From a virus: a stretch of DNA of 16,715 nt. Below are positions 5,974 to 8,785 of this stretch, piece after piece. Every line of letters begins with the position of its first letter. The stretch's first letter is position 1. The stretch lies in UHGV virus genome UHGV-1907752; one strand, 5' to 3'. Below the pieces are notes generated by a model, which was not told the origin of the DNA, did no database searches, and was given only the letters and a program-made list of their open reading frames with translations. The translations under genes and the position numbers were made by a program.

Positions 5974-6300
5974 TCATAACACCGTCGGACAACGCAAATC
6001 GTAAATCAGCACGGAAACAGAAAACGGCAGCTCCCCCTGAAGCAGTTCTTCCCGCTCCGCAAGATCCGGATTCCGGTACAGCATCCCGGTCAGTCGCATG
6101 GCAGCCCCCTTCATCCGGGTTAATGCCTCGCCCGGGATCAGTTCACCGTCCTCACGGATCACTTTATCCCGGCTGCCCTGAATGTAGGCCAGCAGCACGG
6201 CGGTAGCCTGACGAACCTTGTCCATCAGCATGTCATCATCCGCGTCATGGTCGACACGCAGATGTGCCTTGATCTCTTCCAGTGTCAGTAATGCCGTCAT
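5974..6300 (-). CDS. gp6-like head-tail connector protein
   Basis: 108 aa, N-terminal …LTLEEIKAHLRVDHDADDDML… matches the signature start of the gp6-like connector family. ATGA overlap with the upstream ORF. Confidence 0.7.
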   Translation of the reverse strand: MTALLTLEEIKAHLRVDHDADDDMLMDKVRQATAVLLAYIQGSRDKVIREDGELIPGEALTRMKGAAMRLTGMLYRNPDLAEREELLQGELPFSVSVLIYDLRCPTVL

Positions 6301-8785
6301 TTTCCGCCTCCTGCATCCCGCCCACGTTTTGCAGCCAGGGTCCAGGCTGATGAATGAGCTTCTCCGGGTTTATCTTCGGTCATACTGTTGCAGTGCCACA
6401 GCGAGCCCCCCCACGTCACCGTATCGCCGGAGTGGTAGGTTTCACCGGCTCTGAACACACCGCGGTAGAGCATCACCGGCAGGGAAAATGTTTTTTCCGT
6501 ACGCTGGCCACTGCTCTGCCGGACCACCACAGAGAACAACCGCTCACCCGTCATGCTGACGTCAATATCCGCCACCCCGTCAACCAGGCATTCCCATCCC
6601 CGCATCCCGTGCGTTTTTTCATACGCCCGCCAGAGTCCGCCCTGGTGTGTGGCATACGTGCCCCGGGGAAAGGATTTTTGATCGTCAATGGCGGGGAGTA
6701 TTTCCAGAGCCGTGGCATCACGCCCGTCCTGCGGAGCCGGCAGGGCACTCACCGCATCCAGAACCGCCTTCTGCAGAACATCCGGATCGTAGTCACGACC
6801 ATCACGCGGAACATGAATATGGCTTACAGCCTCCTTCACCATCTGTTCAAGCATCGGACGCACATCATCCGGGGTGAGACTTTTACCGTCCGTCGGCTGC
6901 GGAATATTTGCGACCGCATCATTCACCGCCTTCTGCAGTACTTCCGGATCGTAGTCACGACCATCACGCGGAACAGGGATATGGCTTACAGCCTCCTTCA
7001 CCATCTGTTCAAGCATCGGACGCACATCATCCGGGGTGAGACTTTTACCGTCCGNNNNNNNNNNACCATCTGTTCAAGCATCGGACGCACATCATCCGGG
7101 GTGAGACTTTTACCGTCCGCCGGCTGCGGAATATTTGCGACCGCATCATTCACCGCCTGCTGCAGTACATCCGGATCATAATCACGACCATCACGCGGTA
7201 CCGGAATGGCCCCCACAGCGTCATCCACCATCGCCTGCAGAACCGGACGCACCTCATCCACCGTCACATGCTTCTGTAATACCGCCGACAGGGAAGTCAG
7301 TTTCTCTTCAAACGCTTGTGCCTGCGAGGCCATCTTCCCCTCAAATGTGCGCTGTAAATCCGCCAGCACTGTGGAGAATTCTTCTCCCAGTGCACGAATA
7401 ATGGACAGTTCCCGTTCCGTCATTTTCTCAGTATCCCCCCTGAACATCGCTTTCACCGCATCATGCTCTGTTTCACTGATTGCCTTATTACCGTCAGATG
7501 CGCCGTCAGGCAGCTGTGATGAAACTGTTTTCCCGGCAGACGAGAACGGATCCTCACGGGCATCACGACGGGACAGCGCCTCCAGACTGTAGTTCTGCTG
7601 CTGAAGATACAGTGCATCACCGCCGGCCAGGGGCGGCAGGTTCTCCCGTTTACGGGCCTCATTGGGCGTGAGAAGCGTATTTTTCACCGCATCCCCCAGC
7701 GTTTTCATGCGCCGCTCACTGTCCATTCTCAGCAGCGTGGTGACATCAAATTCTGTACTCTCGTTTTCCCCCGTTTCCAGCGCCTCATCCAGTAACAGTT
7801 CAATGGACTCAATCAGCGTCTGCAGGCACTGGGAATAATACTGCTGCTCCAGCGCCTCCACGTTGTCACTGGAAGGCGGTTGTCCCACGCCAATCTTGTA
7901 GGCCGGGACACGGAACACCGAACAGACAATTTCAGCGGTCATCTTCAGTTGTTCCACCGTCTGCGCATCCACCGGTGAAAACGTCGTGGGGTTGTATTTT
8001 GCCCCGTTGCTCAGAATGGCCGTTTTCCCCGCATTTTCGCCTGTATACCCGCTGTCCCAGTTGCTCTTCAGTTTTTTCGCATTTTCTTCCGTAATACTGC
8101 CGGGGATCTCAATCACCCCGGACGGCCTGCCGCCATTTCTGAAAAAAGACGTCGAATTTTCCTGAATATGATGCCCCTGCGTGGCCGCCAGCCCGGCGGC
8201 ATACACCGGCGGCAATCCTATAAGCGGATGAAAAAAACAGTTAAACCGGTCGTGGATCACTTCCCGGGCAGGCACCGTCACCGCCTCCGTGATCCCGCAG
8301 TTCCGGTCCGGCGTGATGCGGTAGAACACCTCGCCGTCATCCGCCACCAGAGGTTCAACCCGGCTCCAGTCCAGAATACGCAGTTCTTTGATCTGCCCCC
8401 GGGCATTACGGATTTTCAGCACCACCGTATTGCCGTGACGCAGTTTGGCGTTCAGCCACAGTTCAAAAAACTGGATGCGGTTCTGCTGGGCGTTGGGACG
8501 ACGACAGAGGCGGGCAATATCCCCCCGGCGCGTTTCCCTGCGTATCCCATGCGCATCCGTCTGCATAAGACGCAGCCGCATTTTGGCGATATCCTGGGAT
8601 ATCAGCGAAATACATGCAAACACCGCATGAAAGGAGAGGACGGCTTCAGGATCGGCTTTCACGCCCTGCTGCCAGGCGCCGGAAAAGGGCTCAGCCACCG
8701 CCTGAAACAGGCTGGTCCAGCCCGCCTCTCTTACGTCACGTCCTGATTTCTGGTTTTTTCGGGTTCGCCGTAAAAGGTTCCACAT
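6297..8785 (-). CDS. portal protein (HK97-family-like) with a C-terminal extension of tandem 54-aa repeats and a roughly 120-aa C-terminal domain; interrupted by the assembly gap at 7055-7064
   Basis: The N-terminal 400 aa carry portal-like blocks (…RRPNAQQNRIQFFELW…HGNTVV…, …FFRNGGRPSGVIEIPGSITEENAKKLKSNWDSGYTGENAGKTAILSNGAKY…, …FRVPAYKIGVG…). The ORF continues without a stop into repeats of DGKSLTPDDVRPMLEQMVKEAVSHIPVPRDGRDYDPEVLQKAVNDAVANIPQPT. The track splits it into 6998..8785 and 6297..7025 only because of the 10-N placeholder; the total length here is therefore not a multiple of 3. Confidence 0.6.
6731..7281. repeat. tandem direct repeats, 162-bp unit (54 codons), at least 4 units, within the portal-gene C-terminal extension
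   Basis: Near-identical 162-bp units at 6731-6892, 6893-7054 and, after the gap, a partial unit 7065-7119 followed by a more diverged unit to about 7281. Unit boundaries are in phase with the codons. Confidence 0.85.
7055..7064. other. assembly gap (10 N) inside the tandem-repeat array
   Basis: A run of 10 N. The left flank ends exactly at a repeat-unit boundary and the right flank resumes 107 nt into a unit. Confidence 0.95.

What the first reader, a model, noticed from the sequence alone, without database searches (positions are those of the whole stretch)
6297..8785. Portal gene continues into a tandem 54-aa repeat array and an extra C-terminal domain
After a recognisable portal core of about 400 aa, the same ORF runs into at least four copies of a 54-aa repeat (…PVPRDGRDYDP[DE]VLQKAVNDAV…DGKSLTPDDVRPMLEQM…) and then a 120-aa Trp/Cys-containing domain (…GDTVTWGGSLWHCNSMTEDKPG…). 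Perfect 162-bp nucleotide repeats inside an essential structural gene are recombination-prone, so the copy number is probably variable. The extension could be an internal-capsid barrel or a separately functioning domain (for example ejection or decoration related). It could also be a separate gene product if the unresolved gap hides a stop or frameshift.
Basis: seen in the sequence. Interest (0 to 1): 0.7.

Follow-up and report, generated by a model that had tools for sequence, protein, structure and literature searches.

The report
Portal gene fused to neighbouring fibre-like gene
The "extended portal" of this E. coli prophage is two genes joined by one extra G: an ordinary HK97-type portal and a widespread, uncharacterised fibre-like protein with a sugar-binding head that almost all related phages encode separately just downstream.

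Summary
The ORF is real: minus strand 6297-8785, with an HK97-family portal core, a flexible tail, a helix, a 54-aa (162-nt) repeat array and a 140-aa beta domain. The 10-N gap (7055-7064) lies inside the array. Its flanks share an exact 55-nt overlap, the mark of an assembly collapse. Merging them gives an in-frame 807-aa ORF, 6 nt different from phage vB_EcoS-705R7. Only about three 54-aa periods are resolved, not four, and the repeats are 97% identical, not perfect.

The extension is a separate gene, called X here (phrog_1289, 5788 clusters at 50% identity). In 68 of 68 other species, portal and X are adjacent ORFs in different frames, overlapping in 67. In E. coli a G-run (7435-7440) in the Shine-Dalgarno-like sequence before X's ATG (7421-7423) decides the state. 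G5 gives portal (454 aa) plus X. G6, as here, fuses them. Both alleles are common, and RefSeq labels the ancestral-like G5 form "frameshifted".

X length is 245+54n aa (n=0-6) among close relatives. X looks like a fibre: a coiled-coil helix, a variable stalk (collagen-like in relatives) and a tandem CBM5/12-like head. Its function and place in the virion are untested. Recurrent fusion to the portal's C-terminus favours tethering inside the capsid. Interest is moderate.

The parts
6297..8785 (-). Fused portal-X ORF as assembled. It is interrupted by the 10-N gap. The minimal reconstruction is 807 aa.
7640..8626 (-). HK97-family portal core (aa 54-382)
   Evidence: PF04860, 273.8 bits. TIGR01537, 349.5 bits on the near-identical L003 protein. 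Solved homologues are 9lbn, HK97 8cez/8fql and RcGTA 6tba.
7424..7639 (-). Portal crown motif (LTPNEARKRENLPPLAGGD) followed by a flexible C-terminal tail of about 50 aa. The tail ends in a short amphipathic helix (HDAVKAMFRG).
   Evidence: Alignment to solved portals ends near aa 420. Tails of the same kind occur in six X-linked portals.
7435..7440 (-). G6 run (C6 on the + strand). It is part of the SD-like AGGGGGGA upstream of X's start. G6 fuses the frames. G5 gives a portal stop (TGA) overlapping X's ATG.
7421..7423 (-). ATG that starts gene X (MTERELSIIRALGEEF...) in the two-gene alleles. Here it is internal codon 455.
7271..7423 (-). N-terminal long helix of X (X residues 1-50), coiled-coil-like
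   Evidence: AF2 helix 3-50, pLDDT about 80
6729..7267 (-). Repeat array. The 54-aa unit consists of two 27-aa half-units (DGRDYDPxVLQxAVNDAVANIPxPx / DGKSLTPDDVRPMLEQMVKEAVSHIPVPR). It contains the scaffold gap.
   Evidence: AF2 gives helix+loop per half-unit at low confidence.
7055..7064 (.). 10-N scaffold gap. The flanking 55-mers (7000-7054 and 7065-7119) are identical.
6300..6728 (-). Conserved C-terminal beta domain of X, with two CBM5/12-like motifs and a KRGRD tail
6384..6452 (-). Second CBM5/12-like motif (YHSGDTVTWGGSLWHCNSMTEDK)
   Evidence: PF02839, 23.9 bits, just under the 26.2 cutoff. Relatives pass the cutoff.

Best explanation
Shown. The window carries the head module of a long-tailed lambdoid (Stx-phage-type) E. 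coli prophage. Its 'extended portal' is a fusion of two genes. One is an HK97-family portal of 454 aa. The other is the gene that follows it in this whole phage lineage, called X here (phrog_1289).

The ancestral arrangement is portal and X as overlapping, translationally coupled ORFs in different frames. In E. coli phages the sequence before X's ATG is a G-run. With five G the portal stops at a TGA overlapping X's ATG. With six G, as here, the portal frame reads straight into X.

The 162-nt array is the variable stalk of X. It expands and contracts by unit-length recombination or slippage much faster than point substitutions accumulate. It also breaks short-read assemblies, which is what the 10-N gap is.

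Inferred about X. X is an elongated, probably trimeric fibre. It has an N-terminal coiled-coil helix, a stalk of helix-loop repeats (true collagen triplets in many relatives), and a conserved distal head made of two CBM5/12-type glycan-binding modules.

Inferred about its place, as my best guess. X works while tethered to the portal's long flexible C-terminal tail, non-covalently in G5 phages and covalently in G6 phages. That would put about 12 copies (four trimers) inside the capsid above the portal crown. The head would bind a ligand common to all hosts, such as the peptidoglycan glycan backbone, or a virion component. It would not bind a strain-specific receptor.

Inferred about expression. 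The internal SD-like sequence and the ATG are intact in G6, so free X may also be made there.
For: Fusion by one G:
- The junction DNA is identical in the compared loci apart from G5 versus G6, bar isolated synonymous differences further upstream.
- The window, 705R7, 2851, YYZ-2008 and E2348/69 are fused.
- WGPS2, EH1995 and BP-4795 are split, with an ATGA overlap.
- Of about 958 complete E. coli genomes with this junction, at least 752 records hold an exact G6 copy and at least 367 an exact G5 copy.
- On a tree of 61 loci there are at least 4 changes of state.

The two-gene state is ancestral:
- In 68 of 68 species-level loci from alpha-, beta- and gamma-proteobacteria, portal and X lie in different frames (53 at -1, 15 at +1). 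In 67 of them the two ORFs overlap.
- The synteny TerL-protease/MCP-small ORF-portal-X-adaptor holds in Salmonella phage FSL SP-016, a Rhizobium phage, Halomonas and metagenomes.
- 148 of the 150 best family representatives lack a portal domain.

SD reading:
- AGAGGA, GAGGA or AAGGAG sits 6-12 nt before X's ATG in relatives. The E. coli G-run occupies that place.

Gap:
- There is an exact 55-nt overlap, and the merged ORF is in frame.

X is functional in both states:
- pN/pS of the C-domain is 0.21 within G6 and 0.24 within G5.

Fibre-like architecture:
- AF2 results.
- 51 of 150 representatives have at least 5 collagen G-X-Y triplets, and several hits carry PF01391.
- The CBM5/12 match is supported by sequence and fold.

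Tethering to the portal:
- There are at least four further independent portal-X fusions. One is a Pantoea-type clade of 13 clusters (query included) that stay fused at 61-69% identity to the query. The others are P0431/P0427, P0437/P0435 and P0430.
- Related portals carry other C-terminal cargo, such as Zeta toxin.
- X-linked portals have a tail of about 50 aa that HK97 gp3 and 9lbn lack.
- The C-domain is 45-60% identical from E. coli to Rhizobiales, which is unlike fast-evolving receptor-binding tips.
- That portal C-termini face the capsid interior is established structural knowledge for HK97, RcGTA, SPP1 and P22. I did not recompute it.
Against: - There is no experimental datum on X: no virion proteomics, no structure, no mutant.
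- The only paper on a relative with mass spectrometry (phi330, PMC12502783) reports coverage for its short-tailed phages only.
- Coiled coil plus collagen plus CBM is the typical make-up of external fibres. The best fold matches are tail fibres and extracellular chitin-binding modules. No collagen-like or CBM protein is known inside a capsid.
- Adjacent overlapping genes fuse easily by a single indel, so recurrent fusion is weaker evidence of physical association than it would be for unlinked genes.
- Nearly all genes of this module overlap, so coupling to the portal is not specific.
- Trimer formation and the SD function of the G-run are inferred, not shown.
- The AF2 stalk has pLDDT below 50.
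Confidence: 0.6

Rival explanations
1. X is an external head or neck fibre, like a whisker or decoration fibre. It acts as a free protein and helps reversible binding to cell-surface glycans. Under this reading the fusion to the portal is a tolerated by-product of a 1-nt insertion. Free X in G6 phages comes from the retained internal SD and ATG, and the fused copies are inert baggage inside the head.
For: - The architecture is typical of fibres: a long helix, collagen or helix-loop stalk of variable length, and a CBM5/12 head.
- The best fold matches are Agrobacterium phage 7-7-1 and Milano tail-fibre and receptor-binding proteins, and chitin-binding modules.
- The gene lies between the portal and the head-tail adaptor, as neck proteins do.
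- The internal start signals are intact in G6.
- Twelve extra chains of 350-570 aa would cost little capsid volume (my estimate).
Against: - The fused allele is the majority in E. coli, and several independent fused clades persist through deep divergence. That is unexpected if fusion removed most of the functional product.
- The head domain is unusually conserved across host classes for a receptor binder.
- The receptor of the related phage phi330 is OmpC, recognised by the J-like tail fibre (PMC12502783), so X is not the primary receptor binder.
Confidence: 0.27
2. The long form is the true, original portal gene, with a C-terminal extension such as an internal barrel or decoration. The split forms are broken pseudogenes.
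For: - PGAP labels G5 alleles 'phage portal protein, frameshifted'.
- phrog_2271 is an 859-position 'portal' profile covering both parts.
- The fused allele is the more frequent one in E. coli.
Against: - In 68 of 68 other species the two genes are separate.
- Isolated phages FSL SP-016, RHph_X2_26 and BP-4795 have the two-gene form.
- Split X ORFs stay intact with pN/pS 0.24.
- X has its own ATG and SD-like sequence in every lineage.
- The model is not a continuous helical barrel.
Confidence: 0.05
3. The locus is built to give two products in set proportions. In G5 phages a -1 slip on G GGG would make a few portal-X chains among plain portals, as with T7 10A/10B or lambda G/GT. In G6 phages internal initiation would add free X. 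On this reading the G-run is a recoding or phase-variation device.
For: - In G5 the Gly-tRNA on GGG can re-pair perfectly one base back, and the shifted frame gives exactly the G6 protein (sequence).
- At least 4 switches of G-run length occur among 61 loci. Two G5 loci differ by 0-2 nt in 900 from G6 loci.
- A hairpin lies downstream (z = -2.84).
Against: - There is no canonical X XXY YYZ heptamer.
- The hairpin starts about 41 nt after the run, too far for a -1 stimulator.
- There is no Rfam match.
- Other lineages use both the +1 and -1 frame relations and have no G-run.
- A tract of 5-6 G is short for phase variation, and the state is mostly inherited by clade.
- The near-identical G5/G6 pairs could be homopolymer sequencing errors in draft assemblies.
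Confidence: 0.06
4. Assembly artefact. The continuous ORF is an illusion created by a scaffolding join, and the real sequence has a stop or frame change in the gap.
For: A 10-N gap sits inside the gene, and read literally it puts the downstream part out of frame.
Against: - The flanks overlap exactly by 55 nt and merge in frame.
- The merged gene differs by 6 nt in 2424 from a gap-free phage record.
- The fusion point is 370 nt upstream of the gap and is fully sequenced.
Confidence: 0.02

Closest known systems
HK97-family portal proteins (PF04860/TIGR01537; HK97 gp3, PDB 8CEZ/8FQL; RcGTA portal 6TBA)
   Same: The first 420 aa or so are a full-length member. The profile scores are far above cutoff, and the alignment reaches the C-terminal crown of the solved proteins.
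   Different: The solved relatives end 10-25 aa after the crown. This portal has a flexible tail of about 50 aa and, in this allele, 353 or more further residues from another gene.
SPP1 gp7 / Mu gpF ('MuF') minor head proteins, including MuF polymorphic toxins (from memory: Jamet et al. 2017)
   Same: The gene lies immediately after the portal. The protein is thought to be held by the portal inside the head. Its C-terminal part is modular and variable. Here too, related portals carry Zeta-toxin or HExxH modules.
   Different: There is no sequence or Pfam relationship (no Phage_Mu_F hit). X's C-domain is conserved rather than polymorphic. Tethering is inferred, not shown.
P22 portal C-terminal barrel
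   Same: It is a C-terminal extension of a portal that projects into the capsid.
   Different: P22's barrel is a continuous helix from the same gene. X consists of short helices broken by PxPxDG loops followed by a beta domain, and is a separate gene in most phages.
Phage fibres built from coiled coil or collagen plus CBM5/12, with T4 fibritin as the segmented coiled-coil model (BFVD 'collagen triple helix repeat' / ChiC_BD proteins; tail fibres of Agrobacterium phages 7-7-1 and Milano)
   Same: The domain grammar and the fold of the head are the same. The stalk length varies.
   Different: Those fibres are encoded in tail or baseplate or neck modules and are external. X sits between the portal and the adaptor, is repeatedly fused to the inward-facing end of the portal, and has a head conserved across bacterial classes.
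Frameshift-made C-terminal extensions of virion proteins (T7 10A/10B, lambda G/GT)
   Same: Two overlapping frames give a short and a long product sharing an N-terminus. The -1 relation at a run of G is similar.
   Different: Here the two states are fixed genomic alleles (G5 or G6). No slippery heptamer or correctly placed stimulator was found.

Membership tests
HK97-family phage portal (PF04860 / TIGR01537) | Profile match above the curated cutoff over the whole domain | tested here: met
   PF04860: 273.8 bits against 39.1, profile positions 2-321 of 321. TIGR01537: 349.5 bits against 112 on the near-identical L003 protein.
HK97-family phage portal (PF04860 / TIGR01537) | Sequence homology to solved dodecameric portals, reaching their crown | tested here: met
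   9lbn E=9e-29, HK97 8cez E=2e-20, RcGTA 6tba E=1e-11. Query aa 43-420 are aligned.
HK97-family phage portal (PF04860 / TIGR01537) | Encoded in a head module with terminase, protease, capsid protein and connectors | tested here: met
   TerS, TerL, S78 protease-capsid fusion, gp6-like connector, head completion protein, gp10-like protein and tail completion protein are all present.
phrog_1289 / X family (stand-alone portal-adjacent protein) | Profile match of the region after the portal tail | tested here: met
   For the 407-aa X of NC_049941 (about 93% identical at DNA level to the window's gene): phrog_1289 E=2e-197 and phrog_2271 positions 455-859. For the window's own 251-aa C-terminal piece: 5788 representative clusters at E<=1e-3.
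phrog_1289 / X family (stand-alone portal-adjacent protein) | A gene of its own, directly downstream of and overlapping the portal gene | tested here: not met
   In this window X is in frame with the portal (G6). The feature is met in 68 of 68 other species and in G5 E. coli alleles.
CBM5/12 carbohydrate-binding module (PF02839) | Pfam score at or above the gathering cutoff | tested here: inconclusive
   The window scores 23.9 bits against 26.2. The homologue P0122 scores 29.8 bits. PF02839 is precomputed for many relatives.
CBM5/12 carbohydrate-binding module (PF02839) | Small beta fold superposable on solved chitin-binding domains | tested here: met
CBM5/12 carbohydrate-binding module (PF02839) | Binding of chitin, GlcNAc polymers or a related glycan | not testable with these tools
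   This needs pull-down or ITC with the purified C-domain.
Collagen triple-helix repeat protein (PF01391) | Runs of G-X-Y triplets | tested here: not met
   The window's X has none. 51 of 150 family representatives have at least 5 triplets, and fused relatives carry PF01391.
MuF / SPP1 gp7 minor head protein (PF04233) | Phage_Mu_F domain | tested here: not met
   No such Pfam hit in X or in any of 10 relatives. Only the gene position is alike.
P22-type portal barrel | Long uninterrupted C-terminal helix continuous with the crown | tested here: not met
   AF2 gives helices of 13-18 residues separated by 10-13-residue loops, then a beta domain. This is a monomer model with a low-confidence stalk.
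Programmed -1 ribosomal frameshift site | Slippery heptamer plus a stimulatory structure 5-9 nt downstream, conserved among relatives | tested here: not met
   Only G GGG is present. The hairpin begins about 41 nt downstream. Rfam gives nothing. The frame relation varies among lineages.
Phase-variable homopolymeric tract (contingency locus) | Tract long enough for frequent slippage; state uncorrelated with phylogeny | tested here: inconclusive
   The tract is 5 or 6 G. There are at least 4 changes in 61 loci, but the state is mostly clade-wise. The switching rate is not measurable here.

The most novel reading that the evidence does not exclude
The long C-terminal tail of this class of HK97-type portals is a general tether for proteins carried inside the capsid. 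X is by far the commonest such cargo. It would be a trimeric fibre with a peptidoglycan- or chitin-type glycan-binding head, stored above the portal crown in siphophages. It might act at DNA exit or entry, for example by leaving through the tail or holding the genome end. The tether would switch between non-covalent and covalent by a one-base slip in the ribosome-binding site. The Zeta-toxin and HExxH portal fusions would be other cargos of the same system. This would be a portal-based counterpart of the MuF toxin carriers.
Probability: 0.3. Interest if true: 0.7.

Novelty: new variant of a known kind. Interest (0 to 1): 0.4.

Why it matters
- Annotation. About 18% of complete E. coli genomes carry this junction (about 958 of 5426). 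The two-gene form is being labelled a frameshifted pseudogene. X and its fragments are named 'portal protein' or even 'head-tail connector'. In EHEC research, prophage intactness is judged from such calls.
- Assembly. The 162-nt array is a systematic break point for short-read assemblies. Thousands of 'partial portal' entries come from it.
- Biology. X is a very large phage protein family (5788 clusters at 50% identity, across alpha-, beta- and gamma-proteobacteria) with no assigned function. It sits at a fixed place next to the portal. The natural G5/G6 pair offers a ready-made experiment, covalent against non-covalent, to find out where X sits and what it does.
- If X proves to be portal-tethered internal cargo, that would add a new component to the siphophage head.

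Tried and rejected
- Reading the gap literally gives a frameshift and many stops. I rejected that reading after finding the 55-nt overlap.
- The first homologue search with the full X returned only near-identical E. coli entries, so it was of little use for function.
- The search for related loci with the 26-sequence alignment failed for lack of a conserved stretch. I redid it with 5 sequences.
- NCBIfam found nothing for X. PADLOC was not searched.
- A PDB sequence search found no solved homologue apart from CBM5/12 modules.
- tblastn with beta- and alpha-proteobacterial X against isolated phages found no well-studied phage carrying X.
- Four literature searches aimed at X, portal frameshifts or this phage group found no description of X or of the G-run.
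- Strauch et al. 2008 on phage 2851 is not held. The infectivity of 2851 and BP-4795 therefore rests on my memory.
- The phi330 paper has virion mass spectrometry but reports it only for the short-tailed phages. Its deposited sequence also has extra frame breaks in this gene.
- 'Phage gp6-like head-tail connector' names on X fragments suggested a fusion to the downstream adaptor. The sequences end normally, so this is a naming error.
- Programmed frameshifting was considered and found unsupported.
- The second structure-prediction job was not used. The tool gives no contact or PAE output, so it could not test the tail-helix to X-helix docking.
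Full report
**What is in the window**

The finding lies on the minus strand. One ORF runs from the ATG at 8785 to the stop at 6297-6299. It is broken only by a run of 10 N at 7055-7064.

The first 420 aa or so are a full HK97-family portal:
- PF04860: 273.8 bits against a cutoff of 39.1, aa 54-382.
- TIGR01537: 349.5 bits, measured on the near-identical L003 protein.
- Solved homologues: 9lbn, HK97 gp3 (8cez/8fql) and the RcGTA portal. 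The alignment reaches their C-terminal crown.

After the crown motif the chain continues as follows:
- A low-complexity tail of about 50 aa.
- A helix of about 50 aa.
- An array with a 162-nt / 54-aa period.
- A domain of about 140 aa rich in Trp, Gly and Cys.

The neighbours are a small and a large terminase, a protease-capsid fusion, a 73-aa ORF, a gp6-like adaptor, a head completion protein, a gp10-like protein, a tail completion protein, a tail tube protein and a tape measure protein. This is the head and tail module of a siphophage.

**The gap and the repeat count**

The 55 nt before and after the N-run are identical. Contig ends of a k=55 de Bruijn assembly look like this when a repeat collapses.

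Removing the duplicated 55 nt gives a 2424-nt gene. It is in frame, encodes 807 aa, and differs at 6 positions from the gap-free record of phage vB_EcoS-705R7. The gap therefore hides no frameshift. It does hide the copy number.

The resolved sequence holds six 27-aa half-units at aa 507-668. That makes three 54-aa periods, the outer ones degenerate. The best pair of units is 157/162 identical, and the longest exact run is 76 nt. 'At least four copies' and 'perfect' are therefore overstated. The period, the motifs and the coordinates are right.

**Which phage**

The gene matches 93 phage records at 93-99% identity. These are mainly long-tailed Stx1a, Stx2a and Stx2c converting phages, such as 2851, BP-4795, YYZ-2008 and the WGPS series. 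The X-coding part of the gene (L003 2780-3924) matches 1246 of 5426 complete E. coli genomes, with a median of four matching places per genome.

The matched span in those records changes in steps of 162 nt.

**The key observation: one G decides between one gene and two**

In NC_049941, LC567831 and BP-4795 the region is annotated as two genes. One is a 454-aa portal ending ...KAMLRGILRK*. The other is a 407- or 461-aa protein starting MTERELSIIRALGEEF. The two overlap in ATGA.

In the window, 705R7, 2851, YYZ-2008 and E2348/69 the region is a single ORF.

The junction DNA differs consistently only in a G-run. Five G give two genes, and six G give one. The window's run is at 7435-7440.

Frequencies:
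- Exact-match searches in complete E. coli genomes found at least 752 records with a G6 copy and at least 367 with a G5 copy, among about 958 genomes that have this junction.
- In 68 junction loci (63 from IMG/VR, plus four phage records and the window) the split is 40 G6 to 28 G5.
- The state mostly follows clades. A neighbour-joining tree of 61 loci still needs at least 4 changes. Two G5 loci differ from G6 loci at 0-2 of 900 flanking positions. These could be recent slips or homopolymer sequencing errors.

RefSeq labels the G5 form 'phage portal protein, frameshifted'.

**Which state is ancestral**

The C-terminal part belongs to a very large family. The window's 251-aa C-terminal piece matched 5788 representative clusters (50% identity) at E<=1e-3, and 588 at E<=1e-30.

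Of the best 150 representatives:
- 148 have no portal domain.
- The median length is 364 aa.
- 141 start with Met.

PHROGs holds the family as phrog_1289. The name 'portal protein' there appears to be carried over from the fused forms.

A scan of one genome per species gave 74 loci from Enterobacterales, Pseudomonas, Burkholderiales, Rhizobiales, Caulobacterales and others. In all 68 loci where both parts were found, portal and X are in different frames (53 at -1, 15 at +1). In 67 of them X's open frame overlaps the end of the portal gene.

The same order holds in Salmonella phage FSL SP-016, Rhizobium phage RHph_X2_26, a Halomonas prophage and two metagenomic contigs. That order is TerL, protease and capsid, small ORF, portal, X, adaptor.

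The two-gene arrangement is therefore ancestral, and the E. coli G6 form is derived.

In the relatives an SD-like AGAGGA, GAGGA or AAGGAG lies 6-12 nt before X's ATG. The E. coli G-run occupies that position. I infer that the run is X's ribosome-binding site, and that the extra G leaves an intact internal start (ATG at 7421-7423).

**The repeat array as a fast-changing stalk**

X measures 245+54n aa. Values from n=0 (P0295) to n=6 were seen.

Within one cluster of 29 loci that differ by at most 1.2% in flanking DNA, X ranges from 353 to 569 aa.

Public protein sets are full of 'partial' portal entries caused by contigs ending in this array.

**What X looks like**

An AlphaFold2 model of stand-alone X (353 aa, with 66 aligned relatives) gave the following:
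- A long N-terminal helix, residues 3-50, pLDDT about 80.
- One helix plus one loop per 27-aa half-unit, at low confidence (pLDDT below 50), as expected for something that needs partners.
- A confident all-beta C-terminal domain, pLDDT above 90.

Sequence agrees with this:
- PF02839 scores just under its cutoff in the window and above it in relatives.
- The PDB profile search finds only chitinase and deacetylase CBMs.
- The domain holds two such motifs, around GGLWRA and GDTVTWGGSLWHC.

In a third of the representatives the stalk contains real collagen triplets, which argues for a trimer. X is thus built like a fibre.

X is under purifying selection in both allelic states, with pN/pS 0.21 and 0.24 for the C-domain.

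**Where X acts**

This is inference. Four observations favour a portal-tethered position inside the capsid.

1. Independent fusions. Besides E. coli there are at least four other portal-X fusion lineages. A Pantoea-type clade has 13 clusters (query included) of 1096-1249 aa that stay fused at 61-69% identity to the query. The others are P0431/P0427, P0437/P0435 and a Pandoraea protein with a collagen stalk.
2. Other cargo. Related portals carry other C-terminal modules, namely Zeta toxin/AAA_33 and an HExxH-containing domain.
3. Longer tails. All X-linked portals examined have a tail of about 50 aa ending in a short amphipathic helix. HK97 gp3 and 9lbn lack it.
4. Conserved head. The head domain is 45-60% identical from E. 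coli to Rhizobiales. That fits a ligand common to all hosts or a virion partner better than a strain-specific receptor. The related phage phi330 uses OmpC through its J-like fibre (PMC12502783).

In every solved portal the C-terminus points into the capsid. This is established knowledge that I did not recompute. A covalently fused X would therefore be inside. Easy toggling between G5 and G6 is most simply explained if covalent and non-covalent tethering are equivalent.

Several things count against this:
- The architecture and the fold matches are those of external fibres.
- No collagen-like or CBM protein is known inside a capsid.
- Fusion of overlapping neighbours needs only one indel, so recurrence is weaker evidence than it seems.

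I put the internal-tether reading at about 0.45, the external-fibre reading at about 0.3, and leave the rest open. The core claim is two genes fused by one G, with a variable stalk and an assembly gap. I put that at about 0.9.

**Rivals**

- Ancestral long portal. The view that the long form is the original portal and the split forms are broken is contradicted by the 68 of 68 result and by isolated phages with the two-gene form.
- Programmed frameshifting. It is conceivable at G GGG. But there is no heptamer, the only hairpin begins about 41 nt downstream (z = -2.84), Rfam finds nothing, and other lineages use either frame relation without a G-run.
- Assembly artefact. This is excluded by the overlap and by the near-identical gap-free relative.

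**Known or new**

The sequence itself is common and annotated as 'phage portal protein'. I found no paper that describes X, the G-run switch or the fusion.

The nearest known things are:
- HK97-type portals, for which membership is met.
- The P22 barrel and the MuF/gp7 proteins, which are analogies only, with membership not met.
- Collagen/CBM phage fibres, which share the fold and the domain grammar but differ in genomic place.

I file it as a new variant of a known kind and score interest at 0.4. It is not a surprise in kind. It does correct a widespread annotation, and it points to a very large uncharacterised family with a natural experiment attached.

Noticed in passing
window 8997-10934 (-): The prohead protease (Peptidase_S78, aa 48-152), a coiled-coil segment and the HK97-type capsid protein (aa 386-635) are one 645-aa ORF. 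The capsid gene lies upstream of the portal gene. This unusual order is kept in a Halomonas prophage. In two metagenomic relatives the protease and capsid are separate genes.
   Followed up: partly
window 8731-8952 (-): A 73-aa ORF (phrog_829, unknown function, no Pfam hit) overlaps the portal start by 55 nt. An ORF of 63-84 aa sits in the same place between capsid and portal in every distant relative examined.
   Followed up: partly
proteins P0433, P0434, P0436, not in the window: HK97-family portals from metagenomes carry other C-terminal modules after the same kind of flexible tail. P0433 and P0434 carry Zeta toxin/AAA_33. P0436 carries a domain with an HELGH motif. These may be portal-borne toxins, comparable to MuF toxins.
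   Followed up: no
L073 1169-3753 (NZ_AP018488.1) and similar RefSeq records: PGAP marks the G5 two-gene allele as a frameshifted portal pseudogene. Comparative data indicate it is the ancestral, intact arrangement.
   Followed up: yes
proteins P0284, P0340, P0343 and others: Fragments of X from Klebsiella, Salmonella, Enterobacter and Citrobacter are named 'phage gp6-like head-tail connector protein, partial' in NCBI. They contain only X sequence, so this looks like a name-transfer error.
   Followed up: partly
protein clusters P0416 (6387 members), P0329 (1456), P0332 (665): Very many 'partial' portal proteins in E. coli draft genomes start or end inside the 162-nt array. The repeat is a systematic contig break point.
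   Followed up: partly
window 7366-7393 (-): A hairpin GCACUGGGAGAAGAAUUCUCCACAGUGC lies in the first 90 nt of X's coding sequence. The 95-nt segment has z = -2.84 against shuffles. Its meaning is unknown, and it is too far from the G-run to be a frameshift stimulator.
   Followed up: partly
window 6354-7181 (+) and L001 5506-6528 (-): Long antisense ORFs (275 and 340 aa) run across the repeat array. They look like a by-product of the repeated codon pattern, not genes.
   Followed up: no
L151 860-3602 (PV189401.1, phage phi330): This plaque-forming Pankowvirus (1e9 PFU/ml, receptor OmpC) has the G6 tract and four full repeats. Its Sanger-assembled record has extra frame breaks in the portal tail and in the C-domain. 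Other genes are also split. These are probably sequence errors.
   Followed up: partly
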